Shown: positions 15,923-58,426 of the stretch, in pieces | How positions within the stretch are numbered: position 1 is the stretch's first letter | Layout: the number at the start of each line of letters is the position of its first letter | Origin: Octopus sinensis | Lineage: Eukaryota | DNA length: 64,000 nt | Assembly (NCBI RefSeq): GCF_006345805.1 | Contig: NC_043003.1 | Location: 74,772,001 to 74,836,000, forward strand | Reading direction: 5' to 3' | Position numbers and translations under genes: made by a program | The notes under the pieces: generated by a model | Databases searched by the model: none | Seen by the model: the letters and a program-made list of their open reading frames with translations, nothing else | What the model was told of the DNA's origin: nothing

Positions 15923-16464
15923 ATTTACTATCTGGAATATTAATTGGCTAACAAAATCTGCAGAGCGTCGGAAAACAGTCATTGGTTATCATAGGTTTCG
16001 TTTACAATCCAAATATAATTCCCATTACATTCATTCAAAATCCACCTGATGTCAGTAGTAGGCGTTGTCGATTGACACTTTAAGTCGGATATGACTGTCT
16101 AACAGAAGAGCCAAATAATGAACAATCCTACTTTTTAGGAATTGGTTCGGAATTTCTAAAGTTCGATAGCTAAACCAATTCATGATATTGCTGCAAATTC
16201 AATTTCTTATTCAATCCCAACGGTGTCTATTGTCTATTTCATAAATTGTATATTGTGATCTCTCAGATATTCATGTTATTATTGATATATATTTGTCTGC
16301 TTCAGTAACTCTCTACTTATGAAGTATGCATGTATGTATATATCTATCTATCTATCTAGCTATCTCTCACACTCATCATCTCCCTTTCATTATATGCATA
16401 TTTATAAACACACATATACCCACATACTTGAATATATATTATATATATATATATATATATACCG

Positions 16465-16575
16465 ATAGGTCACACAAAGTGTGTCAATAGCCAGCTGGAG
16501 AAGATTTTCTCCTGGGACTACAAGCTACAGTAACACCCACCCTTAATGGTTAGCCACATTTAGATGGCAAATATA
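16465..16575 (-). repeat. Copy of the structured repeat also found at 37115-37226
   Basis: Reverse complement TATATTTGCCATCTAAATGTGGCTAACCATTAAGGGTGGGTGTTACTGTAGCTTGTAGTCCCAGGAGAAAATCTTCTCCAGCTGGCTATTGACACACTTTGTGTGACCTATC aligns end to end with 37115-37226. It is embedded in a (TA)n tract. Confidence 0.8.
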
Positions 16576-33825: not shown

Positions 33826-34123
33826 CTATATATAAATATGTATATATAATGTATGTGTGTGTGTGTGTGTTCTATATACAAATATGTATATATACAAAGT
33901 GTATATATCTGTATTTATGTATATTAAACTTTTTCATACTTTTTCATAGTTATATATATTTTTAAACACATTATAAATATAATTTAATAATTTTTATTTT
34001 CAATTTAAATAATTTAAATTTTTCAATTTTATATTTTATATATTTTCTATATCATATTTTTTTTTATGTTTTTGTTTTTGGTTTTTCACTTTTTGATTTG
34101 CCTATTAGTGGTTTTATCTCTAA

Positions 34124-35691
34124 CTAGCAGTATCGCCCGGCGTTGCTCGGGTTTTTAAGGGAAATAACTATTAAACATTTTTAGAGAGTTATAGCCAAAG
34201 AATAGCAAAAAATGCATTCAAAATGGAAAAAAAATAATGGTAATTTTTTTTTTAAATCGTTGACTCATCGTAGACATTTTTAGAGAGTTACTTCCCTTTA
34301 TTAAAAAAATATGCGTTAAAATGGAAAAAAAATAATGGTAATTTTTTTTTTAAATCGTTGACTCATCGTAGACATTTTTAGAGAGTTATAGCCAAAGAAT
34401 AGCAAAAAATGCATTCAAAATGGAAAAAAATAATGGTAATTTTTTTTTTAAATCGTTGACTCATCGTAGACATTTTTAGAGAGTTATAGCCAAAGAATAG
34501 CAAAAAATGCATTCAAAATGGAAAAAAATAATGGTAATTTTTTTTTTAAATCGTTGACTCATCGTAGACATTTTTAGAGAGTTATAGCCAAAGAATAGCA
34601 AAAAATGCATTCAAAATGGAAAAAAATAATGGTAATTTTTTTTTTAAATCGTTGACTCATCGTAGACATTTTTAGAGAGTTATAGCCAAAGAATAGCAAA
34701 AAATGCATTCAAAATGGAAAAAAATAATGGTAATTTTTTTTTTAAATCGTTGACTCATCGTAGACATTTTTAGAGAGTTATAGCCAAAGAATAGCAAAAA
34801 ATGCATTCAAAATGGAAAAAAATAATGGTAATTTTTTTTTTAAATCGTTGACTCATCGTAGACATTTTTAGAGAGTTACTTCCCTTTATTAAAAAAATAT
34901 GCGTTAAAATGGAAAAAAATAATGGTAATTTTTTTTTTAAATCGTTGACTCATCGTAGACATTTTTAGAGAGTTATAGCCAAAGAATAGCAAAAAATGCA
35001 TTCAAAATGGAAAAAAATAATGGTAATTTTTTTTTTAAATCGTTGACTCATCGTAGACATTTTTAGAGAGTTACTTCCCTTTATTAAAAAAATATGCGTT
35101 AAAATGGAAAAAAATAATGGTAATTTTTTTTTTAAATCGTTGACTCATCGTAGACATTTTTAGAGAGTTACTTCCCTTTATTAAAAAAATATGCGTTAAA
35201 ATGGAAAAAAATAATGGTAATTTTTTTTTTAAATCGTTGACTCATCGTAGACATTTTTAGAGAGTTACTTCCCTTTATTAAAAAAATATGCGTTAAAATG
35301 GAAAAAAATAATGGTAATTTTTTTTTTAAATCGTTGACTCATCGTAGACATTTTTAGAGAGTTACTTCCCTTTATTAAAAAAATATGCGTTAAAATGGAA
35401 AAAAATAATGGTAATTTTTTTTTTAAATCGTTGACTCATCGTAGACATTTTTAGAGAGTTATAGCCAAAGAATAGCAAAAAAATGCATTCAAAATGGAAA
35501 AAAATGATGGTAAATTATTTTTAAAATCGTAGACTCATCGTAGACGCGCGCTAATACCCAGAAGGGCTCGATATGAATCACGACTATAAGATACCCGGTT
35601 TTGGTTAAACTGCATTGCAAAATGTGGGAGTATTTAGGAATCTAAATCGGAGAGACAAACACTCACACAACTTCACTTTTATATATAAAGA
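34124..35691 (-). mobile_element. Non-autonomous Helitron nested in the opposite orientation
   Basis: Minus strand begins A|TCTTTATATATAAAAGTG (35691) and ends CCCGAGCAACGCCGGG-CGATACTG-CTAG|T (34124). TC...CTAG termini, subterminal hairpin, A|T insertion site. Confidence 0.85.
34176..35545. repeat. Tandem array of 14 units of about 97-98 bp in two variants
   Basis: Units start CATTTTTAGAGAGTTA at 34176, 34275, 34373, 34471, 34569, 34667, 34765, 34863, 34960, 35058, 35155, 35252, 35349 and 35446. Variant order is ABAAAAABABBBBA. Confidence 0.95.
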
Positions 35692-36426: not shown

Positions 36427-36700
36427 CTAGCAGTATCGCCCGGCGTTGCTCGGGTTTTTAAGGGAAATAACTATTAAACATTTTTAGAGAGTTACTTCCC
36501 TTTATTAAAAAAATATGCGTTAAAATGGAAAAAAATGATGGTAAATTATTTTTAAAATCGTAGACTCATCGTAGACGCGCGCTAATACCCAGAAGGGCTC
36601 GATATGAATCACGACTATAAGATACCCGGTTTTGGTTAAACTGCATTGCAAAATGTGGGAGTATTTAGGAATCTAAATCGGAGAGACAAACACTCACACA
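36427..36700 (-). mobile_element. Second copy of the nested Helitron with a single repeat unit, 5' tip missing
   Basis: Near-identical to 34124-34190 plus 35480-35669. It lacks the terminal ~22 nt. Confidence 0.85.
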
Positions 36701-37194: not shown

Positions 37195-37299
37195 GCTGGC
37201 TATAGACACACTTTCTGTGCCCTATCAGTATCTGTGAAGGGAGGGATGACTTCCCTTCACAGATACTGATAGGGCACAGAAAGTGTGTCTATAGCCAGC
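37195..37299. repeat. Perfect 48-bp inverted repeat with a 9-nt loop
   Basis: 37195-37242 is the exact reverse complement of 37252-37299. Confidence 0.95.
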
Positions 37300-37699
37300 A
37301 TATCGGAACGTACATTGTCACAGTGATTTCTTTCCTTTTCTCTTACATATTTTTTGTCTTCTTTATATTCATTTTTTTTTCTATTTCTTCTCTTATTCAT
37401 TTTCTTCCTTTCTTTCTCTACCTCTTTTTCTACCGTATGAGTTTGTAAATGAACAGTTTGGTGTGTTTGTTTTAATGGCCTGCTAATGTGTACAGTGAGT
37501 TTTTTGCTCCCATATGTCGGAAAGACACTCGGCAGGAGATGGAAACTAAATTGAAAGAGGATACTACTACTACTACTATACTACTACTACTACTACTACT
37601 ACTACTATCACTACTACACGACAATAATAATAATGTTAATGGTAATAATAATAAAAACAACATCAACAAGAGCACTCAGAGAGCGCAAAACTCCGTTAG

Positions 37700-39465
37700 T
37701 GTTCCTTTATTTTGCCACTATGGCCACAACACAGTGGGGACACTACATAGACAGACACAACACCACAGTGGGGACAAAAGCATAAAACAAATCAAAAAGA
37801 GTCATATAAAAATGAAAAATGAAATTGTTGCATGGTCCCCACTCTCGTGCAGTATCATTTGAATGTTTATATAAACTATTTACAATTGTTCTATTATCTT
37901 ATTGTCTTTTATCTCGTGTTTCCTCTTTTTTTTTTAAACAATACTATTTTACTTTTTTCTTTCTTTCTTCAATAAAACAATTTTACTTACATTTCCTTTT
38001 TAATATCTCATGAGAGGTTCTAAACCTTTTAGCTCCACTACAGGTGGCTATTCATCGAACTTCACCATCAATCTTGGCAGGTCAATCCCTTCTCCACACA
38101 TGTCTTTCCATCTGTTTTAGGTGTCCTTGTCAACCACGATGGCCTTCACATTCTCGGAATACATATCCGTGTGAACATTTACTCTTATAATATGTTTACA
38201 CTTTAATAATTTCTTTTCAGTTTCTTTTGCGTACGTCACAAAATTCCATTGAACATTTACTTTTCTTATTTCTTTTCTCTTTTCCTGCTCCGTTTCTGGT
38301 ACTTTTTTCTTTTCTTCCACCAATCCGAACTGTCTTTCCAGTTGCGTGTCTAAATTTTTTTCTTCTGCCGGAACAGCTGATATCTTCATCAATGTCTCTT
38401 TCTTTTACAACTTCTCCTTGAACACTTCAAGTTCCTTTTCTCTTATTTCATCCACCACAAGTTTGTCTTCCTTTCTCCTTCTCTCCTCCTTTTCCATCTC
38501 TTCTTTTTTTTTCTCCTGCTTATCTTTCTTTTTTTAAACACCGTGAACCCCTCCTCCGTTGCTTTCTCCTTTATCTCGACCTGTACCACCTGGTCCATGC
38601 TCTCCTGCTTCTCCGACTGCTATATCTGTTGTTCCCTCTGGGGGCAGCGCGCGATTAGGCGGCGTGCCCTCCACTACCTCTCTCAATTTACGTCATCGGG
38701 CAGCACTGCCTCTTCGAAAATTCTCTTTCGGTCTTCCACTGTTGCTTGAACTGTTAACTCTATTCCATATCCCCAGTAGTTAACACTTTGGGTCATTGTG
38801 GCCTTCAGTATTTTGGCCTCCACATTCATGTCATATATTATGGCTGTCATCAGTCATGCCTCTTTCAACTCTGGCGGCACTTTGCCATCTCGCACTCTGG
38901 CCACACTTTTGCCACAGTACGATGGCAAAAGTACCCAGTCGGACAATCTTATTGCTTCCATGGAGTGCTTAACTGCTTCCACTTCTGATGCAAAATCCAC
39001 CTCCAAGTACCGTACTTTCTTCCTCCTGTTATAAATGTGGTTAGTCATTTTATACTCTTCAAACATTCTTCAATATTCTCTATTGTCGCTATATCTATTT
39101 TCCTTGTTGCTATCTTCATTGTCTTATATATCACCGTTCTTTTCATTAATTTGGTTGCTAGTTCCCCGGGTGGCGTTAATTTCAGTGTGTTTTCGTCTCT
39201 TGACAGCAACCTCTTACATCCCTTCATATTTCGAGGTTCAACCTTTATTTCTCGTACCTCCAGCTTTTCCACGTCTATCCCTTTTCCAGTTGAAGATGCA
39301 TAACTGTGGCCACCTGCTGGCGTTTTCTCCATTTTCCCACAATGGGAAAACAGCAATTCAAAATAACACTAGCGGCAATTTGAGCAGTAACATTCGATGA
39401 AACAAATATTTAACACTATGACTGACGTCTAACATGACAAACAACAACTCATACCGCGTTCAGAC
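37700..39465 (-). mobile_element. Gag/ORF1-only retroelement, unit 1 (full length, decayed)
   Basis: Broken ORF: MEKTPAGGHSYASSTGK...KRTVIYKT...EVDFASEVEAVKHS..LLPSYCGKSVARVRDGKVPPE...YWGYGIELTVQ...K/E-rich...IIRVNV..VKAIVV...IDLPRLMVKFDE*PPVVELKGLEPLMRY*. About 300-nt 3' UTR ending in AATAAA (37706-37711). No RT motifs seen. Confidence 0.75.
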
Positions 39466-39495
39466 AACCCTCTGCAAAGGAACACCAACGTCGTG

Positions 39496-41517
39496 ATTTC
39501 TTTTATTAAACATAAGGCCTCTACAAAGATAGGACAATACAAAAACAGACAAAACAATGCAATGGGGGGACATAAAATCACATAGCGAATGAAATTATGT
39601 ATACAATGAAAGTTGAGGATAGAATGACTTACCTGCCTCCCATAAGCGGGTAGTTCCATTTTACTGGTTTTAAATAAAATTCTACTAATAGTTCACACAT
39701 CCTGTCTTGCATGTATTGGTTTTCCATTTATTCTTTAAAAAAAAACACAAAGTAGCTATTTACACAATATATTCCAATAAATCTTAGAATGCCACCACCG
39801 GCGGCAACTCATCGTAACGAAACTGTACCATTGTCACATCTATAGTTTCCTCAAACAACACCTTCAATCTATCTCCTGTTTTTTGTTTGTATGTTTTCTC
39901 TAGCAAAACTTCTTTCATACTTTCATTGTACTCTGTGGGTGCCAATTTCACTCTCATTACGTTCTTCACCTTTGCAATCTTTTTTCTATATCTACTCTTT
40001 CTGTGTATTGTATCATCGTTCTTAGATTTTTCCTTTTTCGTGTCACTCTCTGCTTTCTTTCACCAATCTCTACTGTTACTGGTATCCCTTCCTCTGTTTG
40101 TCTCTCATTCTCTCTATGATATTCCTCCTTCTTCTGTACTCTCTCCTTCTTGCTAGATGTTGGTAACTGTCTCTACGTTTGCTCCTCACTTATATTTGTT
40201 GACCTTCCAGTTTTTTCTGGTCGTTTGTTTTTTCATGTTTTCCACTCTGCGTCTCCTCTCCCCTGTGCCTGTGTTACTTTTTCTTCCTCTTGACCACTGT
40301 ATATTATTCTTCCATTTTTACCTCCTCTACGTTTAAACCCTCTTCTTCTTGATGTTCCTTCTCTATCCCCTCCTCTTCGTGATTCTGGTGGCAGCCATCC
40401 TCCATAACACAGAGGACGACGTTCAAATTTTGAAGATTGCAAGAACTACGGATGTGAACTACAGGGGGATATGGAGTGGAGGTATCGGTTCATAAAAGCT
40501 TACCAGACCTCCACAAAATTGCAGAAGAATTTTTAGTTTTCCGTGTTTATGTTAGGTCTCGATTTGTATTGTCATTACGTGTTGCACTTGTCGAACGAAC
40601 CTTTTCTGTATAGCCTTATTATGGGTAATAAAGAAATATTTGTCGTGAATGTTGTATCGTGTCATTTGATAGCCCGCTGCGTTTGTGTTGTTTTCTCTAC
40701 ATGTGACTGTTGTTACTGCTACATTTTTACTGTTAAACTGTTATATTACTGAATTGTCGGATTTATTGTATTTATTGTTGCTGGAATTTTATTTTCTTCC
40801 CCTGGCTGTCTCCCTCCATTCTCAATATTTGCTGGTACATCTTGACACTTAGCTTTCATGTGTCCCCTTACTTCACATAGAAAGCATACGGGAAGTATTC
40901 CTTTGAGTACAATTCTCAACCTCATCTCGTCTGATAGTACCAATACTTCTGCAATTTTGTGGAGGTCTGGTACGCTTATATGAACCGATAACTCCAGTCC
41001 ATATCCCCTGTAGCTCACCTCCATAGTTCTTACAATCTTCAAAAATTTAGTATCGCCCTCTGTGTTATAGAGGATTGCTGTCACCACCCAAGCCTCGTCA
41101 ATTTCTGGGGGCATTCTACCAATCCTTACTCTGACTGCACGTTTTTTTCTGTTTTTTCTATAACTTCTTTAGGCGGCGTCAGCCTCAGTGTGTCTCCCCC
41201 CATTCTCAATACGTGTTGGTACTTCTTGAAATTAGCTTCGTTTAGTTCAATTTCTCTAACTTGCAGTATATCTGCTGTTTGCCAGTTACTGCAGCGTAAC
41301 TGCCTGCTGGTACTAGTTTACCTTCCATAATATTATCCACAACCTCACCCATAAATGGGGAAGAAAATAAAATTCCAGCAACAATAAATACATTAAATCC
41401 GACGATTCAGCAATATAACAGTTTGACAATAACATTGTTGCAATAAGAAGACTCACATGGAGCGAAAGCATTTCAAACGCAGCAGGCAATCAAATGACAC
41501 GATACAACATTCACGAC
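39496..41517 (-). mobile_element. Gag/ORF1-only retroelement, unit 2 (contains an inverted segment at 40386-40802)
   Basis: MGEVVDNIMEGKLVPAGSYAAVTGK (ATG 41352); PPEIDEAWVVTAILYN..YRGYGLELSVH..LRIVLKG; CCHC knuckle CFLCEVRGHMKAKC (40845-40886); C-terminal VMRVKL..IDVTMVQFRYDELPPVVAF; AATAAA at 39502-39507. Confidence 0.8.
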
Positions 41518-41520
41518 AAA

Positions 41521-42299
41521 TATTTCTTTATTACCCATAATAAGGCTATACAAAACGAGATCTAACATAAACTGGTAAAACTAAAAGTTAATAAAAGATG
41601 ACACACGTAAAAAATTTAAGAAACGAATATCATGAAAATAATGAAAATGAGACGTAATGCCCACTCGACCTCCAAAGTCGAGTAGTTACATTGCTACATT
41701 ATTTTATCACAGTCTTTTCTCTTATTCAAAGTTCACATTATTTTCCTTCCCCACCCAAAAAAGTCCACAATATTTTATATTTTGAAATTTTTCTCATTCA
41801 TCAGTTATGTTTTCATATTCCAACACAGACGGCGGGACGTCTCATAATCAAATTGATTTTATTTCTTTTATCACTTCTCCAAGTTCTCCAAATGTATCTC
41901 TAACTCCCGTGTAACTGTCTTTACGTATCATAATCCCTATGTCGTCCGTTTCCTATTCTCCTCTGGGCAGTTCCATCCTCACCACTCTTTTCCATTTTGT
42001 AATAGTTTTTTTTTCATTTCTATACTCTTTTTATAAACAAGTTGTATTCCCTTATACTTGCATTCTTCTTCCTTTGATGCTACTTTGGCCGCTTGCACAC
42101 TTTTAGATTTAAATTCCTTCTCACCTTTCTGTGTCTCCATCTTAGTTTTCTTAGACTTTTTTCTTCCTTTTGCCTTTTTTCTTTTGGGGCTCATAAACTT
42201 ATCACTCCCACCTTTCACTTCACTCCTTTCCTTTTTGTTGCTGGCTCGCTCACCATCACTTTTATATTCTTTCTTTTCTTTATCTTGTTTCTCCTCTTT
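41521..42299 (-). mobile_element. Gag/ORF1-only retroelement, unit 3 (5'-truncated)
   Basis: K/E-rich linker then YKGIQLVYKKSIEMKKKL, matching the start of the C-terminal domain. The 3' end GGGTAATAAAGAAATA abuts the 5' end of unit 2. Confidence 0.65.
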
Positions 42300-42605
42300 C
42301 TCATATAGCGTAAATTCCGCCAAGGGAAACTGAGCCTTCATATGGCCCCGTGCCCCATAAATGTAGCAAGTACGTTGAAAGACTACGTAAGATAGTAATC
42401 ATGTACATTAAAATAAATATAACAAATAATCCAGAATCTTTGTGCGGTGCAGTGTCGATACCCAAATCTAATATGTTCGTTCCAGTCTCGAGGTCAAACA
42501 TCCTTGAATGTTTTATCCGAATCCATCCTGCGGTTCTGGAGATATCTTAAGCACGGACAAATAAACACAACTGTAAATACCTCCGCCTTCGCGAAGGCGG
42601 AGGTA
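42300..42605 (+). mobile_element. Short non-autonomous element with a 3' palindrome (Helentron/HINE-like); its left tip is at 37664-37695
   Basis: Perfect 28-bp palindrome TACCTCCGCCTTCG-CGAAGGCGGAGGTA (42578-42605). TCCGCC near the left end is complementary to GGCGGA in the palindrome. The left end repeats 37675-37695. Confidence 0.5.
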
Positions 42606-42647
42606 ATAATATTAATAACAAAAACAACAACAACAACAATGATAATA

Positions 42648-43211
42648 ACGGTTTCGAAATTTGGCGGAAGGCCACAAATTTTAGGGGGAGGAGCAGTTTT
42701 AAACTGGTACATATTTGATCGAATTTGTCAGGATGAAATGCAAATTTGACCTTTACTGAACTTGAATTTAGAGCGTAAAGACGGACTAAAAGGAGAAGAG
42801 ATTTTTTACCGCTGTACTAACGACTCTGTCACCTCTGCTCCTGTCATCGAAAGTACAGATTCCGCCGTGGTAGACATTGCCTTAATCCTTTCGGGCTCGA
42901 TAATATAAGTGCCAGTTAAACTCTTGGATCGATACGATCGACTTGTCCTATTCCTCAAAATTGCTGTCCTTTTGCCAAAATTTGAAGGCATTGAAAAAAT
43001 GCAGTGAGTTGGCAGAATCGTTAACAAGCCTGGTAAAATTCTTAGTGGTATTTCCTCGGTTTAAATGTACCGAATCTAAATATAACCGAGGTCGACTTTG
43101 CCGTTTATCCTTTCGGGATAGATAAATTAAGTATCAGTGAAACACTGGGGTCGATGTAATAGGCTAGTCTCTTTCTCTAAAATGTCAGGCCCTGTGATTT
43201 TAGTAGAAAGG

Positions 43212-43245
<34 letters not shown>
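42648..43245. mobile_element. Cluster of three SINE family C copies (42648-42842 minus, 42850-42990 plus 3' half, 43001-43245 plus with (ATT)n tail)
   Basis: Each aligns with 26348-26562. The last is best preserved (GAGTTGGCAGAATCGTTA...CCGAGGTCGACTTTGCC...ACTGGGGTCGATGTAAT...TAGTAGAAAGGATTATT). Confidence 0.75.
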
Positions 43246-43246
<1 letters not shown>

Positions 43247-44145
43247 AACAGCAGAAAATAAAGTTTAAACCAGCTTTCATTTATGAGGCTCTGTCTCACT
43301 GAACATTGCACTGACTTTCAGGCTTCTGCATCGATTTATTTTCATCCTTGATTCTTCAAGGACAATGCATCGTACAACTATGATGTACCTTAACAGAAAT
43401 TAGGATGTAATGGCAATGCAAGGCTTATAACAAGAATAAATCGCATGATTTGAAAAGTGATGGTGAACGTTTTGTTTCCCTCCATCAAACTTGCAAATAA
43501 AACCGAAAATTGACTTATAATGAGTAGGCAAATAAGTAACATTGGTACATCATTTAATTAACGTAGATTAATTATATTTTTTTACCTACTGATAATGTTT
43601 GTTTTGTATTCTATGAAGTTGTAGGACATATGTGAAAACTAGATGTTACAAAAAGAGAATTACATGATGATGGATAGAAGTAAGCGTAAAAGTACATGAA
43701 ATAATCTATATATTGCTCATGAATTAACTATCGAAGTAAAAACTAAATGGCAACAACATTTGTATTATTAATTACACAGAAGTAGAGAGCTAATAGTGCA
43801 ATAATTATGGAGATTTTGTGTTTTTTGAAAATTATTTTCCGGATTACGCAGGTATTCGAACATTATCTCCTTCAATGCCCTTTCCACATCCGCCTGGATG
43901 GCCGATCTCTGGCTGCTTTGTGTTTATGGAAATGCATTTGTACGTCACTCTTTATTTGTTTGTCCCTGCCAACAATTCGTGGGTTGGAATGATATCCACT
44001 CGCAATTTCTTTTATTTATTCAGCTGTCCCAGCCGGACACATGTCTTTCTGAAGCAGATTCATGCCGAAGAATTTCTTACTTATCGCCACCGTTGCAGCG
44101 AGGCATTGTTGGTAGTATTACTGTTGTTAATTAGAATTTTGCTAT

Positions 44146-45285
44146 GTTGCTTCATTAGCTACAAGGGCCCAAATATAGAGGGGAACAAACAAGGGCACCA
44201 CAGAGGGGACGATACATAGAACGAATATGGTCAGATGGTTATACAATAATGGGGTTATGAATGGCTGCATGCGCCCCTCATCACATGAGTTACCATTAAT
44301 CTTTTTAAACTTTCCGTTTTTATCCTGTATTTAACTAACAATTAATTATCGTCTATTTGAACCGTTATATGTTGTCTAAAATTGTTCTTCTATTTTCCGA
44401 TATTATTAAACATAACCTAAAACGCTTACTCTTTCTTTTTTTCTTTTTTTCCTCCTTTTTCTTTTTTCTTTTCTTTTTTCCTGTCGATTTGACATACTTG
44501 TTTACTTTTTAGTAATATTTCATTAGTGGGTCAATTTTTACTAAATCCACTACTGGTGGCAATTCTTTGAATTCCATCCTTACTCCTGGTGGGTCAATAT
44601 TATCTCGACACATTTCATGCAGTCTCTTATAACTTACTTCTTCAATCACTATTGCCTTCATATCCTCTGCATATATGTACGCTGGCACCTTTACTCTTAC
44701 TATTTGGTTGAACTAGAGTATTTTCTTTTCTGTTTCTATATTCTTCTGGTAGGTTACGTAACACCACACATCATTTCCTTTTATTTTCTTTCCTTTATTT
44801 TGGCTTTTCTGTTCTCACTCCCCACCTCCACACTAAACAGTCTCTCCAATTCTGCTCCTGCCAGCTGAATTTCCGAATCCTTTTCTACCAGAGCAGCAAG
44901 TATTTTTACTTTTAACAACGTTTTCTTTTTACTTTGATTGTAATCATGGGACTGCTAATACCTGCTGCTGTTGGCATTGGCATATGCCATTTCAATGCGG
45001 GGAATTCACCTTCGCAGTGTATAATGCCGCTGTTAGTATCTGCTGTTAGACTCCTGCCAGTTACTGCAGCGTAGCTGCCCGGTGCTGGTTTACGTTCCAT
45101 AATATTATTCACAACTTCACCCATAAATGTGGAAGATAAACAAAAATTTGAGCAGCAATTCAGTAATATAATAATTTAGTAAGATAACAGTGTAACAATA
45201 ACAATGTTACAGTAACAGACTCACATGAAGCGAACACACACCAAGTGTAACAGGGAGTAAAATGACTCGACACGACACTAACGAC
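44146..45285 (-). mobile_element. Gag/ORF1-only retroelement, unit 4 (both ends present, middle deleted)
   Basis: 5' UTR homologous to 41357-41517; MGEVVNNIMERKPAPGSYAAVTGR (ATG 45124); C-terminal RDNIDPPGVRMEFKELPPVVDLVKIDPLMKYY; 3' end GTCCCC...CCCTTGTAGCTAATGAAG. Confidence 0.75.
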
Positions 45286-45318
45286 AACGCCAACGTCCTC
45301 TCAACGATTAGCCGGAGA

Positions 45319-47870: not shown

Positions 47871-48213
47871 TGTTCACTGAAGTATATGAGAAACAATAAA
47901 ATGATGCATTTAAATCCATAGGTTAAATGTAAATTTAAAATGATTTAGAGTAGTTGTTCTAATATAGCTAAAAACCTAAGAGTTCTAGCTTAAAAACTCC
48001 AGTTATAATATACCACACCCTATTCAACCGCCTGTCCATATACCCTCGGCTCACATACATACAAATACCTATACGATCCATTTTTATTTTCGAGTGCACA
48101 TCTAAATTCTTTAGATACACCAACCCTCACAAACACACCCACACACACGCATACAAATAAACGCGTGCACACACTCACACACATCATACACAACACACAC
48201 ACAAACACACACT

Positions 48214-48974
48214 ATTTCTTTATTACCCACTAGGGGCGACACTGAGGGGACACTACAAGACATGGGGATATAGAACATTATAATTAAATTTATGAAAGAT
48301 GAATTGTTACATGAAAAAATGATAATATGAAAGCGATGCTAAAGGCCCCATCCGTTAGCATCACTTACCTGTCCTTTGGTTTTCACCGTCACTTGAATGT
48401 TCATTCCCAATACGAATACCTTCCATATCCATTCTTACTCCGAAATACTCCTCCATATTTTCCACGAATTCATCGCTCATTCTTCTATCTTTCACCTCCC
48501 AATTCTCCCTTTCACACCTCAACATAAACTCATCTATTCTCTTCTTTTCAATCACAGTATACCTAGTCTCACCAACTTCATACCATTTATACTCTTCCAT
48601 TAGCCTTTTAACTTCTTTCCGTTCTGTCATAGTACAAATGTTCGGCCTGGGTTCGATTTCAATCTCTTGTCTGTCTGTATTATTTTTTTTCTTTTGTTTT
48701 CTTGTTGGAGGGGAGCGAGTGGGTTCACTGTCTGCAGGGATAGGGTGGGACTCAGAGGGTGTGGGTGGTTTTGGGGTGGATTGATGTTCTATATTATTTT
48801 CTTTTCCTCTTATTCTTCTCTTCCTCTTCTTCCCAAATTCTTTCCATTCCTGTGTATTTTCTTCCTCTTCCACTGCCCTCCACCCACACTCTCATGATCA
48901 CGTCTCCCAATCTGATGCTTTCCGCCAGGTCCACCAGTACATCGTTCTCTGCCTGCACGTTCAGTTCCACTGTT
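48214..48974 (-). mobile_element. Gag/ORF1-only retroelement, unit 5 (5'-truncated, 21-bp TSD)
   Basis: VELNVQAENDVLVDLAESIRLGDVIMRVWVEG is homologous to units 1 and 2. Open 170-aa C-terminal frame 48361-48873. 3' end GTAGTGTCCCC...GGGTAATAAAGAAAT. Identical flanks ACACACACACAAACACACACT at 48193-48213 and 48975-48995. Confidence 0.8.
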
Positions 48975-50320
48975 ACACACACACAAACACACACTTGCAC
49001 ACATAAAGTGTTGCAAAACAAACGAAAATCCAAAAAGCAAAAAATTCCTTTGCTTTTAAGTTATATTCTAAAAGTATTGAAGTTAAAATTTACATTAAAC
49101 AATTCCAGAATCATCTACAAAATAAGAGGAACAGTCAAAGATTGCCATTCCAATTATAAAATTGCTGTGAATATGGAATCGTCCAAAATCCATTAATAAT
49201 ACTGACATTTGGCCAGAACATCAATAAATCGTTCAACCATTAATCTATATAGTCATTCTATTTCCGTAAGCACCCAAATAAAAGTTTAAACGACAAAAAT
49301 TAACATTGACAGCTTTCTAAAATCATGTTCTCAAATTGATATAAATATCATTTACCGTTCAAATAATCTTACTCTATGTTAAAGAAATAAATTTATGTGT
49401 GCTATGATACGCGTATCCGAAATTCATTAGAGTAAATATTAATTCGTTTTCAAATCAAAGTATCATAAATTTCGTAATGAATTTGGTCTTGTAAATGATA
49501 TAAATGTAATGTTAATATTTCAGTTACATAGGGAATTAAAATTGCAAAAATAATGATCCATAAGAAACTAAGGGAAATTTCATATAGTAAATTCAGTGTA
49601 TGCAAATTTGTGTCCCGTTGGTGTCACTCGGAAAATATATGAGAATGGAATATAGGTCCATCATAGTATATCCTAATTATTGAATTAAAAATGTTGCTAC
49701 GTGAAGCACACACACACACATATATATAGGAAAAGAAAAGAAGGAAAGAGAGCAAATAGTAATATTATGTGTATGATAGAATTGTATGAACATATGATAT
49801 TTGTTTTATAAATCGAGGGCGGGAGAATGTCTCGAATGTCAGTCGTTAGAAATGTGTTTTCGTGTGGTTAAGATTTTTCTTCTCTTATTTCAAACAATAC
49901 TGGTGGTCATTAGCACCCTCCGTCACTTTGTGACGACCATACATGTTGCATTTCGCCTATAAAATGTGAATGGCCAACTTAATAATTTTTCCACACCTAG
50001 TGTAACTGCCCGATGCTGTAAGGGTAATTTTGTTACTAAACTGATGAGAGGAGGCCAGGAATAACTCGTCCTTGTTTTTTTTCTTGTCCGTCTTCATCAT
50101 CTATCTATCGGGATGATTTATTGTCGTCTCCTGCGTTCTTGTTCCAGTTTTTTGATTTATATATATATATATATATATACATATATAATTTTTATGTCTT
50201 AAATTTATAAGGTTCATGAAGTTATTTATTTACTTATTTAACTTATATACTTGTAATTTATTTGGACAAACATGGTGATATATAAGGAGTAGTTATATAT
50301 ATATAAATGTGAGGAAAGTA

Positions 50321-56075: not shown

Positions 56076-57259
56076 GTTTCCAGTCCCGTTATTAATATCC
56101 TGATAATGATGGTGATGATATAACAACAACAACAACAACATCTTTATAAGATGAAAATCCTACCGTGATCAGTATTTTCTTGTACCGATAAAACACGTAC
56201 CTATCAAATACTAGAGTGGATTTAATCAATTCCACATAACCTCCACCCCAAAATGACCTTTTTTCATTTCTGCTTTATTTGTTACACCAATATTGGTGAT
56301 ATTGACAAAAGTGAGACCAATAAATGAATTGATGCTAACTATGTTTCAGAACCGCATAATTATACTATATGCCCTACAATTGTTTCTGATAAGTTTCTAT
56401 TACTAATACTGCATTCTTTTCTATCTATTTTCAGATGCAAATAAGATAACATTTGAACGAATCAATTATACCAGCCGAGAAGAAGGACCAGTTTGAAGAT
56501 ATTGTAAACCATTCAAACAAAGACAGAGCAGGTCAATAAAATATATCTACACACCAAATAAATAAACAAACAAAAATAGATGATGAAATGATACATTCAG
56601 CGAAAGAGATTTAAATCTTTGCAGCTATTGAAGGATACTAACAGAATATATTTTTGAGAATTCTACGAAGATACGATATTCTTAACGAAGTTTTACTTCA
56701 TTGCATACAACTGAGCGATGTCCTGTGGGAAGAATATTAATATATAGTTTTTGATCATATATTTTTTAGCATCGTCATCTTTCACTCCTTTTTCACGTCT
56801 CAATTGGAGTTTGAGATAGATTCAATTTCAGTGACTATAAATTAGTATTAGTATGCTTTATCCTCTTATCCCATACAATATAAACAGAAAAAGAAATCCA
56901 GTAGTCTACCAAGACATCCTCAGTAATGGTAACTGCAAGCATATGTTTCTTTGTTAAAATTTTTGCATCACTTACACTTTTTGACAAAGTTTTATAGATA
57001 ATGAAAGTGAAATGCTCTCCCCGATTTGGTGATAAAAACACAGCAGACTTAATACGTGTATTATGGAATACTGAGAAACGGGAAAAATAACATATATAAA
57101 TCTTTCTATATCTATCTATTGAACAACATTTATATGTATATATATATTTATATATATATATATATATATGAACAAAAGTAAATATTTATTATGAAGTACC
57201 TTCAAGTGTCACACCTGGGAACATTTGTTTGTTCTCCAGGAATAATTTTACGCAGAGCC

Positions 57260-58426
57260 ATGGCGCTGTGTTCAGTATCGGGTATTTTTGGTTCAATTCT
57301 ATTACTTTCACTGAGCTTTAGTTTCCCAGATGAACTCTCTGAACATCCGCTTCATTCTTTTGACAATAACGTACGCAGAAAATCTACAGGGAATTCACAT
57401 TTTGGTGGCTTGCATTCAGTAAGGAAATTTACACGTGTTGCTATGTCAAGCAACGATTACGATGCACGCGCCAATCATTTCCAGCAACAGCATTCAAATG
57501 AAACTAATTCCACAGTATTTCAACGTTCACGCCTAAAGAGTGGTGTGTTTCAGCAAAGTATAAATTTGCTAGAAAAAGATGAAGTTAACGTCACAACTGA
57601 AGTGGGTATAGTGCCTAAACACTTTCAACAGTATAATAGTGCATTTCTAGTTGTAATTGTATGTAGTCATCCAGAAAGACTGGAGTACCGCCAAGCAATA
57701 CGGGAAACATGGGGTTCATCTAGGGGTCAAGAATTTCATGTATTATTTCTAACTGGTAAACACGAAGATCCTTACTGGAATGCATTGATGGATAAAGAAA
57801 ATGCTCTCCACGGTGACATCTTACAAGTGGATGTCATTGATAGTTACAGAAATTTATCTTTGAAGGTCATTGGTGGCCTATGTTGGATAACAGACAGTTT
57901 CCAAAGTATCGATTACGTCATGAAAACAGACGATGACGTATACATAAATGTTTGGTATTTATTAAAACTTTTGAGAGAAAAAGTAATAAGTCAACGGCAA
58001 ATACTTGGGGCTTTGTCGATAATGTCCCCTGTAAAAAGAGACCTGAGGGATCCGTGGGGTGTGCGATTCAGTGAGTTTGCCCCAAAGACGTACCCTCCCT
58101 ATGTATCTGGAGGAGCTTACGTCATGTCACAGAAGGCAGGTAAGAAATTATGTGTGGAAAAATGGAAAAGACAATCGCCTTTTATTCATTTAGAAGACGT
58201 TTATGTAACAGGAATTTTAGCACAGGCAACTGGCATAAGCCATGTGGCACATCCAGGCTTTTCTTTTTGGACAAGTAAAAAGGCTAAGGCTGCCGATATT
58301 GCCAACAACAAAAGAGTGTCAAGTGTTAATATGACACCCGATCAAATTTACAAACTTCACAGACAATCGAACGCTTTACTTGTAAGTACCACATCATCGG
58401 TAAATTCTAAGAAAGTCGAACGCTGA
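57260..58426 (+). CDS. Beta-1,3-galactosyltransferase-like glycosyltransferase (GT31 / Galactosyl_T family), type II membrane protein, about 388 aa
   Basis: Intact ORF, open from 57191. N-terminal hydrophobic anchor; GT31 motifs RQAIRETWG, E..HGDILQ.D..DSYRNLSLK, YVMKTDDDVYIN (DxD), YPPYVSGGAYVMS and LEDVYVTG. ATG 57260 is in GCCATGG context just after a splice-acceptor-like TTTGTTCTCCAG (57239). AATAAA at 58492. Confidence 0.93.
   Translation: MALCSVSGIFGSILLLSLSFSFPDELSEHPLHSFDNNVRRKSTGNSHFGGLHSVRKFTRVAMSSNDYDARANHFQQQHSNETNSTVFQRSRLKSGVFQQSINLLEKDEVNVTTEVGIVPKHFQQYNSAFLVVIVCSHPERLEYRQAIRETWGSSRGQEFHVLFLTGKHEDPYWNALMDKENALHGDILQVDVIDSYRNLSLKVIGGLCWITDSFQSIDYVMKTDDDVYINVWYLLKLLREKVISQRQILGALSIMSPVKRDLRDPWGVRFSEFAPKTYPPYVSGGAYVMSQKAGKKLCVEKWKRQSPFIHLEDVYVTGILAQATGISHVAHPGFSFWTSKKAKAADIANNKRVSSVNMTPDQIYKLHRQSNALLVSTTSSVNSKKVER

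What the first reader, a model, noticed from the sequence alone, without database searches (positions are those of the whole stretch)
37664..45318. Same target sequence recurs at four junctions of the ORF1-only elements
Seen: CTCAGAGAGCGCAAAACTCCG (37675-37695, at the 3' end of unit 1), AACCCTCTGCAAAGGAACACCAACGTC (39466-39492, between units 1 and 2), CTCATATAGCGTAAATTCCGCCAAGGGAAAC (42300-42330, beyond unit 3) and AACGCCAACGTCCTCTCAACG (45286-45306, at the 5' end of unit 4). These tile into one sequence, roughly CTCAGAGAGCGCAAACCTCCGCCAAGG-AACACCAACGTCC. The first and third match at 16 of 21 positions and look like a decayed TSD around the whole 4.6-kb array. The sequence is the left end of the short palindrome-terminated element at 42300-42605. 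Established: Tx1-clade LINEs are often sequence-specific, some targeting other transposons. Inference: these elements repeatedly insert into the terminus of another mobile element, which builds the array.
Basis: partly seen in the sequence, partly recalled or inferred. Interest (0 to 1): 0.72.

Follow-up and report, generated by a model that had tools for sequence, protein, structure and literature searches.

The report
Half-LINEs targeting a Helentron end
In an octopus genome, several short jumping genes that keep only their RNA-binding protein sit at two fixed points 15 bases apart near the end of an abundant, likely rolling-circle transposon, and other copies sit at the same base, so they are likely pasted there on purpose by a borrowed, sequence-specific enzyme.

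Summary
Largely confirmed, with one piece wrong. Public contigs from 4 of 4 runs give the uninterrupted host. The host is a HINE/Helentron-type element: 3' hairpin, subterminal inverted repeat, palindromic far end at 42578-42605. Unit 1 sits after ...CTCCGCCAA with a decayed 14-nt duplication. Other unit-1-family copies (2-7 contigs per run, roughly 6-10 copies by depth) join the host at the same base. Unit 2's 3' end, unit 4's 5' end and one paralogue mark a second site 15 nt further on. Piece 3 is not a junction or a duplication round the array: it is in-frame coding sequence of unit 3, just after its zinc knuckle. A fifth relative at 48213-48974 sits in a (CA)n repeat, so targeting is subfamily-specific. 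Best reading: ORF1-only non-LTR elements moved in trans by an unseen sequence-specific partner. No genome was held, so hitchhiking of loaded hosts and inherited 5' tags are not excluded, and Tx1 membership is untested. The kind is known (Tx1L/Tx1D, Tx1-Mar, HAL1); a Helentron end as target was not found in my searches.

The parts
37665..37699 (-). 3' end of the HINE/Helentron-type host: terminus, small stem-loop (37672-37686) and most of the subterminal inverted repeat; piece 1 lies here
   Evidence: high-depth bin and shared continuation; same 28-mer in 120 metagenome loci with unrelated interiors; 6-bp stem, weak, z -1.5
37686..37699 (.). left copy of unit 1's 14-nt target-site duplication (site 1), decayed; last four bases differ from other copies
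   Evidence: other contigs read C,C,A at 37696, 37697, 37699 (table 3)
37700..39464 (-). unit 1: full-length ORF1-only element, 1,765 bp, broken ORF about 39332-38000, ends 5-8 nt after AATAAA with no poly(A)
39465..39492 (-). middle piece of the host: right copy of the site-1 duplication (39465-39478), then host up to site 2; piece 2
   Evidence: 25 of 29 columns to host (continuation plus the 28-mer)
39493..41516 (-). unit 2: second subfamily (about 45% aa to unit 1), 3' end at site 2, zinc knuckle near 40850-40890
   Evidence: paralogue aligning from 39483 (table 8, records 13 and 18)
40387..40844 (+). 457-nt rearranged, mostly inverted insert in unit 2 that copies the unit-3/unit-2 junction and part of the ORF at 87-89%
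   Evidence: contigs skipping it in 4 of 4 runs (table 5)
41521..42398 (-). unit 3: third subfamily, 5'-truncated near 42400, 3' end three or four bases from unit 2's 5' end
42300..42330 (-). piece 3: coding sequence of unit 3 (FPLAEFTLYE) that resembles the host end; not a junction
42420..42608 (-). far (5') part of the host ending in a perfect 12-bp-stem palindrome that carries the matching subterminal repeat; start approximate; same host copy as 37665-37699 is inferred
   Evidence: fold z -6.8; (AAT/AAC)n flanks 37637-37669 and 42604-42636 alike at 85%
44150..45284 (-). unit 4: internally deleted element, 5' UTR 75% like unit 2, C-terminus of another subfamily; 3' end approximate and not flanked by a recognisable host end
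45285..45308 (-). host sequence resuming 12-13 nt before site 2 (expected duplication of a site-2 insertion); piece 4
   Evidence: 23 of 24 to the continuation
48213..48974 (-). unit 5: 5'-truncated relative with unit 3's 3' end, in a (CA)n repeat with a 20-nt direct repeat (48193-48212, 48975-48994)

Best explanation
ORF1-only non-LTR retroelements of at least two subfamilies sit at two fixed sites 15 bases apart in the 3' end of an abundant, likely Helentron-derived element, and are likely inserted there by target-primed reverse transcription using the sequence-specific endonuclease and reverse transcriptase of an autonomous partner that is not in this window. Shown: the host sequence, both junction positions, other copies at site 1, 12-14-nt duplications, no ORF2, no poly(A). 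Inferred: the element RNA is bound in trans through its 3' UTR; the first nick is after ...CCGCCAA (unit-1 type) or ...CCAACGTC (unit-2/4 type), the second 13-14 nt away; the duplication leaves target sequence between units, so later insertions stack head to tail in one host copy. Unit 3 then landed at unit 2's 5' boundary, and a deletion removed its 5' half and the middle of the host.
For: Empty host continuation in 4 of 4 runs (table 7). At 37696-37704, 2-7 contigs per run carry host end plus unit-1-type 3' end, start at 37658-37675, run on past 37733, and differ from this locus at four bases; by depth about 6-10 copies of a family of about 23-41 (depth is only a rough guide). A paralogue of unit 2 (86% identical) starts aligning 10 host bases before unit 2's 3' end in two runs (table 8). 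Each 5' flank resumes the host 12-14 nt before the matching 3' junction. Units 2 and 4 share a 5' UTR that starts after the host piece, and unit 1's is different, so the pieces are not UTR. Retrotransposition hallmarks in the family: unit 5 is 5'-truncated with a 20-nt direct repeat. ORF1 of a full-length relative models as tandem RRMs plus CCHC knuckle. An O. bimaculoides gene model joins a unit-1-type C-terminus to a unit-2-type ORF (P0014), as expected of mixed arrays there too.
Against: No assembly, so no genome-wide flank count: copies with other flanks may be clipped before 37704 and go uncounted, and 1,843 loose-end rows were not shown. The four runs share the same loci and are not independent. 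Unit 4's 3' flank shows no host end. Units 3 and 5 are not at either site. The two copies of the site-1 duplication match each other at only 8 of 14 (10 and 11 of 14 to the host). No partner was found. 0 of 98 distinct metagenome loci with the same 28-mer show such an insertion.
Confidence: 0.7

Rival explanations
1. Hitchhiking or duplication: few insertions hit the host, and the loaded host was then copied by rolling-circle transposition or segmental duplication, producing the shared junctions.
For: Site 1 leaves intact the 28-mer that is conserved in 98 distinct metagenome loci, where the next bases vary, so a loaded host could stay mobile. Contigs cannot show what lies at the other end of the paralogues.
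Against: Units 1 and 2 are different subfamilies at different sites of one host copy, needing two hits within 15 nt. Unit 4's host flank is 23 of 24 like the host while its UTR is 25% diverged from unit 2's.
Confidence: 0.13
2. Inherited landing tag: a master copy inside the host is transcribed from upstream host sequence, so daughters carry 24-45 nt of host at their 5' end wherever they land, and that tag is the target for the next unit.
For: Unit 4 has host at its 5' side only; no far host end follows it in the window. Crocodilian SINEU-2B has a target-derived 5' extension (PMC4494074, passages). Earlier scan notes propose this for other octopus arrays (unchecked).
Against: For units 1 and 2 the pieces are exactly those expected from in-place insertion into one host copy. 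Unit 2's 5' end and its inverted copy carry only three host-like bases. The host flank of unit 4 could be traced only as far as the 30-letter consensus reaches.
Confidence: 0.12
3. No real specificity: a loose preference for CA-rich DNA plus a high host copy number.
For: Units 3 and 5 sit after CA-rich sequence; the host is high-copy.
Against: Several copies join at the identical base; a few thousand host copies in a gigabase-scale genome make even one exact hit among about 40 copies very unlikely (inference).
Confidence: 0.05

Closest known systems
Tx1L in the DNA transposon Tx1D of Xenopus (PMC1950540, passages)
   Same: non-LTR element at a fixed site in another mobile element, guided by a sequence-specific endonuclease
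   Different: Tx1L encodes its enzyme; here only ORF1 is present and the target is a Helentron-type end
Tx1-Mar and SINEU in Mariner-N4_AMi, Tx1-9_AMi in Harbinger, crocodilians (PMC4494074, passages)
   Same: non-autonomous passengers share a transposon target; two sites used by different families; tandem copies sandwich a duplication; hitchhiking was the rival there too
   Different: passengers there are snRNA-headed SINEs, the sites are about 600 bp apart and opposite; here protein-coding half elements, sites 15 nt apart in the subterminal repeat region
HAL1 (half-L1) of mammals (PMC5753468, passages)
   Same: non-autonomous, encodes only ORF1
   Different: ORF1 here is RRM+CCHC (type I, PMC5203782, passages), no poly(A) at the junctions, fixed targets
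HINE / DINE-1 non-autonomous Helentrons (PMC4067079 and PMC7492417, passages)
   Same: subterminal inverted repeats, inverted repeat nested at the 5' end, 3' stem-loop, no coding capacity
   Different: no autonomous partner or empty site was examined here

Membership tests
HINE / non-autonomous Helentron (host) | subterminal inverted repeats at both ends | tested here: met
   ACCTCCGCC near the left end and its complement at 42594-42602; 13 of 120 metagenome loci show the same far end within 1.5 kb (exact pattern, 40 loci had only 300-nt flanks)
HINE / non-autonomous Helentron (host) | inverted repeat or palindrome at the 5' end | tested here: met
   12-bp stem at 42578-42605, z -6.8
HINE / non-autonomous Helentron (host) | short stem-loop near the 3' end | tested here: inconclusive
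   6-bp stem at 37672-37686, z -1.5, 20 of 200 shuffles as good; sequence conserved in 120 loci selected for it
HINE / non-autonomous Helentron (host) | insertion at TT without duplication | tested here: inconclusive
   microsatellite flanks continue on both sides; AA at -7/-6 in 36 of 98 loci; no empty site
HINE / non-autonomous Helentron (host) | shared ends with an autonomous Rep/Helicase Helentron | not testable with these tools
   no genome held
Non-LTR retroelement moved by TPRT (units) | target-site duplication and 5' truncation | tested here: met
   unit 5: 20-nt repeat, truncated; unit 1: decayed 14-nt duplication
Non-LTR retroelement moved by TPRT (units) | ORF1 with RRM and CCHC knuckle (type I) | tested here: met
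   model of relative P0011 (pLDDT 76.7) hits tandem-RRM proteins, E 3e-5, low TM; zf-CCHC in relatives; ZCCHC3-like RNA-binding clusters
Tx1 clade | reverse transcriptase phylogeny and APE endonuclease | not testable with these tools
   units have no ORF2; no fused or partner protein found
Half-LINE (HAL1-like architecture) | single ORF1, no ORF2, own UTRs, multi-copy | tested here: met
   unit 1 complete at 1,765 bp; many contigs at 80-95% along its length
HAL1 proper | derived from mammalian L1 (Transposase_22 ORF1) | tested here: not met
   no Transposase_22 hit in 4 window pieces or 14 relatives
Target-specific element | most independent copies at one site, genome-wide | tested here: inconclusive
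   several copies at the identical base; denominator and independence not measurable from contigs

The most novel reading that the evidence does not exclude
A retrotransposon lineage has evolved to ride a rolling-circle transposon: site 1 spares exactly the 28-base end signal conserved across distant animals, so the loaded Helentron stays mobile and carries its half-LINE stack, while sister subfamilies of the same enzyme-less lineage switch targets (Helentron end, CA repeat, and by earlier notes a SINE) by switching which partner enzyme their 3' UTR recruits.
Probability: 0.15. Interest if true: 0.78.

Novelty: new variant of a known kind. Interest (0 to 1): 0.5.

Why it matters
Base-exact insertion into a harmless, very abundant repeat is a safe-harbour strategy. 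Here it is used by elements with no enzyme of their own, with neighbouring sites split between subfamilies. Finding the partners would give natural endonuclease variants with targets 15 nt apart, a direct way to study how LINE specificity changes and how non-autonomous RNAs choose a partner. It also explains head-to-tail CCHC 'gene' models in octopus annotations as element stacks.

Tried and rejected
No genome held. My first reading, that pieces 2 and 4 are the units' own 5' ends, was rejected; window-only shuffles could not link piece 2 to 42300-42345 (33% of shuffles as good) or pieces 2 and 4 to 42300-42605 (61%, 67%) because that stretch is not their host. A terminal-inverted-repeat element reading of unit 1 (14 of 15 match between its flanks) was rejected: other copies lack it (table 3). 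Rfam: 11 matches at E up to 1, none at its gathering score. Pfam on four window pieces: nothing at cut-off. Longer-protein searches for an ORF1-ORF2 fusion: none (weak evidence). No octopus-type host continuation in prokaryote or viral contigs. No unit-like sequence in the 120 metagenome loci. No RNA holder listed among the runs. Consensus fold of five 3' UTR segments gave no pairs; the fifth row was misaligned. Literature: searches listed no paper on a LINE targeting a Helitron/Helentron end or on octopus ORF1-only elements (listings only, apart from the seven papers read as passages). The O. vulgaris repeat annotation PMC13282606 has 0 occurrences of 'target', 'ORF1', 'nested' or 'Helentron' in its main text; its supplements and Repbase were not seen and may describe these families.

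Full report
Setting. No genome is held for the window. The nearest protein relatives of the units are Octopus bimaculoides, O. sinensis and O. vulgaris gene models (10 of 10 looked up), so the window is taken as octopus. The four units are on the minus strand. Each carries one broken ORF and ends 5-8 nt after AATAAA with no poly(A).

Is the tiling real? The window alone could not show it. Laying public contigs on 37630-42420 did. In 4 of 4 runs, 12-19 contigs align up to 37695 and continue CCAAGGCAACACCAACGTCCTCTCAACGAT. Piece 2 matches this at 17 of 19 columns and piece 4 at 23 of 24. The bin holding piece 1 has several hundred times single-copy depth, part of which may come from the microsatellite beside it. 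So pieces 1, 2 and 4 are consecutive, overlapping parts of an abundant host element.

What is the host? A 28-base pattern of this end occurs in 120 metagenome loci (about 260 estimated in the collection; 98 distinct), with unrelated interiors. Thirteen of the 120 show, within 1.5 kb, a far end like the palindrome at 42578-42605. Subterminal inverted repeats, a nested 5' inverted repeat and a 3' stem-loop are the described features of HINE/DINE-1 non-autonomous Helentrons (PMC4067079, PMC7492417, passages). The left end (37665-37699) and the far part (about 42420-42608) are inferred to be one copy split by units 1-3: the repeats match and the same microsatellite continues on both sides. The far part had no BLAST match to the metagenome loci, so this link is not shown by homology.

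Site 1. At 37696, 37697, 37699 and 37704 other contigs (2-7 per run) read different letters from this locus. They begin at 37658-37675 and extend past 37733 (table 3, 40 of 1,379 rows shown). They are therefore other unit-1-family copies whose 3' end joins the host right after CTCCGCCAA: about 6-10 copies by depth, in a family of about 23-41 at 37826 (the tool warns that depth is no copy number). Unit 1's 5' flank resumes the host 14 nt before that point. The two copies of this duplication match the host at 10 and 11 of 14 and each other at 8 of 14.

Site 2. Unit 2's 3' end joins 15 nt further into the host. A paralogue at 86% identity starts aligning 10 host bases before that end in two runs (table 8, records 13 and 18). 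Unit 4, whose 5' UTR is 75% like unit 2's, is followed by host that resumes 12-13 nt before site 2.

Piece 3 is different. It is in frame in unit 3's 139-codon open frame, directly after a decayed zinc knuckle that matches P0011 at 14 of 21 residues. Paralogous contigs cross it unbroken and its bin has no host-level depth. It is not a duplication round the array. Its likeness to the host end (22 of 27 columns, 1 of 300 simulations) may be chance or an old capture of target DNA into the gene; I could not decide.

Results against a simple picture. Unit 3 sits at unit 2's 5' boundary, not at either site. Unit 5 (48213-48974) has unit 3's 3' end and lies in a (CA)n repeat with a 20-nt direct repeat. 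Unit 4's 3' flank has no recognisable host end. None of 98 distinct metagenome loci has such an insertion. Copies with other flanks may be under-counted by the contig method.

The protein. 89 relatives at E up to 0.001. A model of a full-length one (46-sequence alignment, pLDDT 76.7, pTM 0.48) best matches tandem-RRM proteins and carries a CCHC knuckle: type I ORF1, described as consistent with Tx1-type elements in non-mammalian animals (PMC5203782, passages) but not diagnostic. No ORF2 is present in the units and no partner was found.

Mechanism. Most likely (0.7) target-primed reverse transcription in trans by a sequence-specific partner, with each subfamily using its own site and 13-14-nt staggered cuts; repeated hits stack units in one host copy. 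Junctions, duplications and shared sites are shown; partner, cut chemistry and independence of the paralogous insertions are inferred. Hitchhiking (0.13) and inherited 5' tags (0.12) remain open and can coexist with targeting.

Comparison. It works like Tx1L in Tx1D (PMC1950540) and Tx1-Mar/SINEU in Mariner-N4 (PMC4494074), and is built like HAL1 (PMC5753468); all read as passages. It is not HAL1 proper, and Tx1 membership is untestable here. Seven searches listed no report of a Helentron end as target; Repbase and supplements were not seen. Earlier notes of this scan describe octopus ORF1-only elements in a SINE; they are unchecked leads, and none mentions a Helentron target. Verdict: real, new variant of a known kind, interest 0.5.

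Noticed in passing
window 37694-37708 and 39476-39490: The two flanks of unit 1 are inverted repeats at 14 of 15 bases, while other copies differ at four of these bases. The left junction looks overwritten by an inverted copy of the adjacent target, as by a template switch.
   Followed up: partly
window 48213-48974: Fifth ORF1-only relative, 5'-truncated, in a (CA)n repeat with a 20-nt direct repeat.
   Followed up: yes
window 40387-40844: 457-nt rearranged inverted insert in unit 2 that copies the unit-3/unit-2 junction at 87-89%.
   Followed up: partly
window 37822-37871, 39622-39671, 41650-41699, 44256-44305, 48326-48375 (minus): Each 3' UTR has a predicted hairpin at a similar distance from the 3' end; significant in 2 of 5 (z -3.5, -3.7; others -0.5 to -1.0). 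Possible partner-recognition signal.
   Followed up: partly
loci L001-L120: The 28-base host end is letter-for-letter conserved in animal-like DNA of metagenome contigs with many unrelated interiors, suggesting a deeply conserved Helentron end signal.
   Followed up: partly
window 42300-42326: Unit 3's coding sequence resembles the host end at 22 of 27 columns; chance or old in-frame capture of target DNA.
   Followed up: partly
window 37195-37299: 105-nt near-perfect fold-back formed within a repeat that also occurs at 16459-16575.
   Followed up: no
window 34123-35669 and 36500-36700: Tandem array of 97-98-nt units, with a 193-nt stretch repeated at 98% about 1 kb further on.
   Followed up: no
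window 57182-58426 (+): 414-codon open frame that by eye resembles a beta-1,3-galactosyltransferase (motifs recalled, no search run).
   Followed up: no
protein P0090: A gene model in which an ORF1 element of this family interrupts an RGS-domain protein, probably an annotation of an intronic insertion.
   Followed up: no
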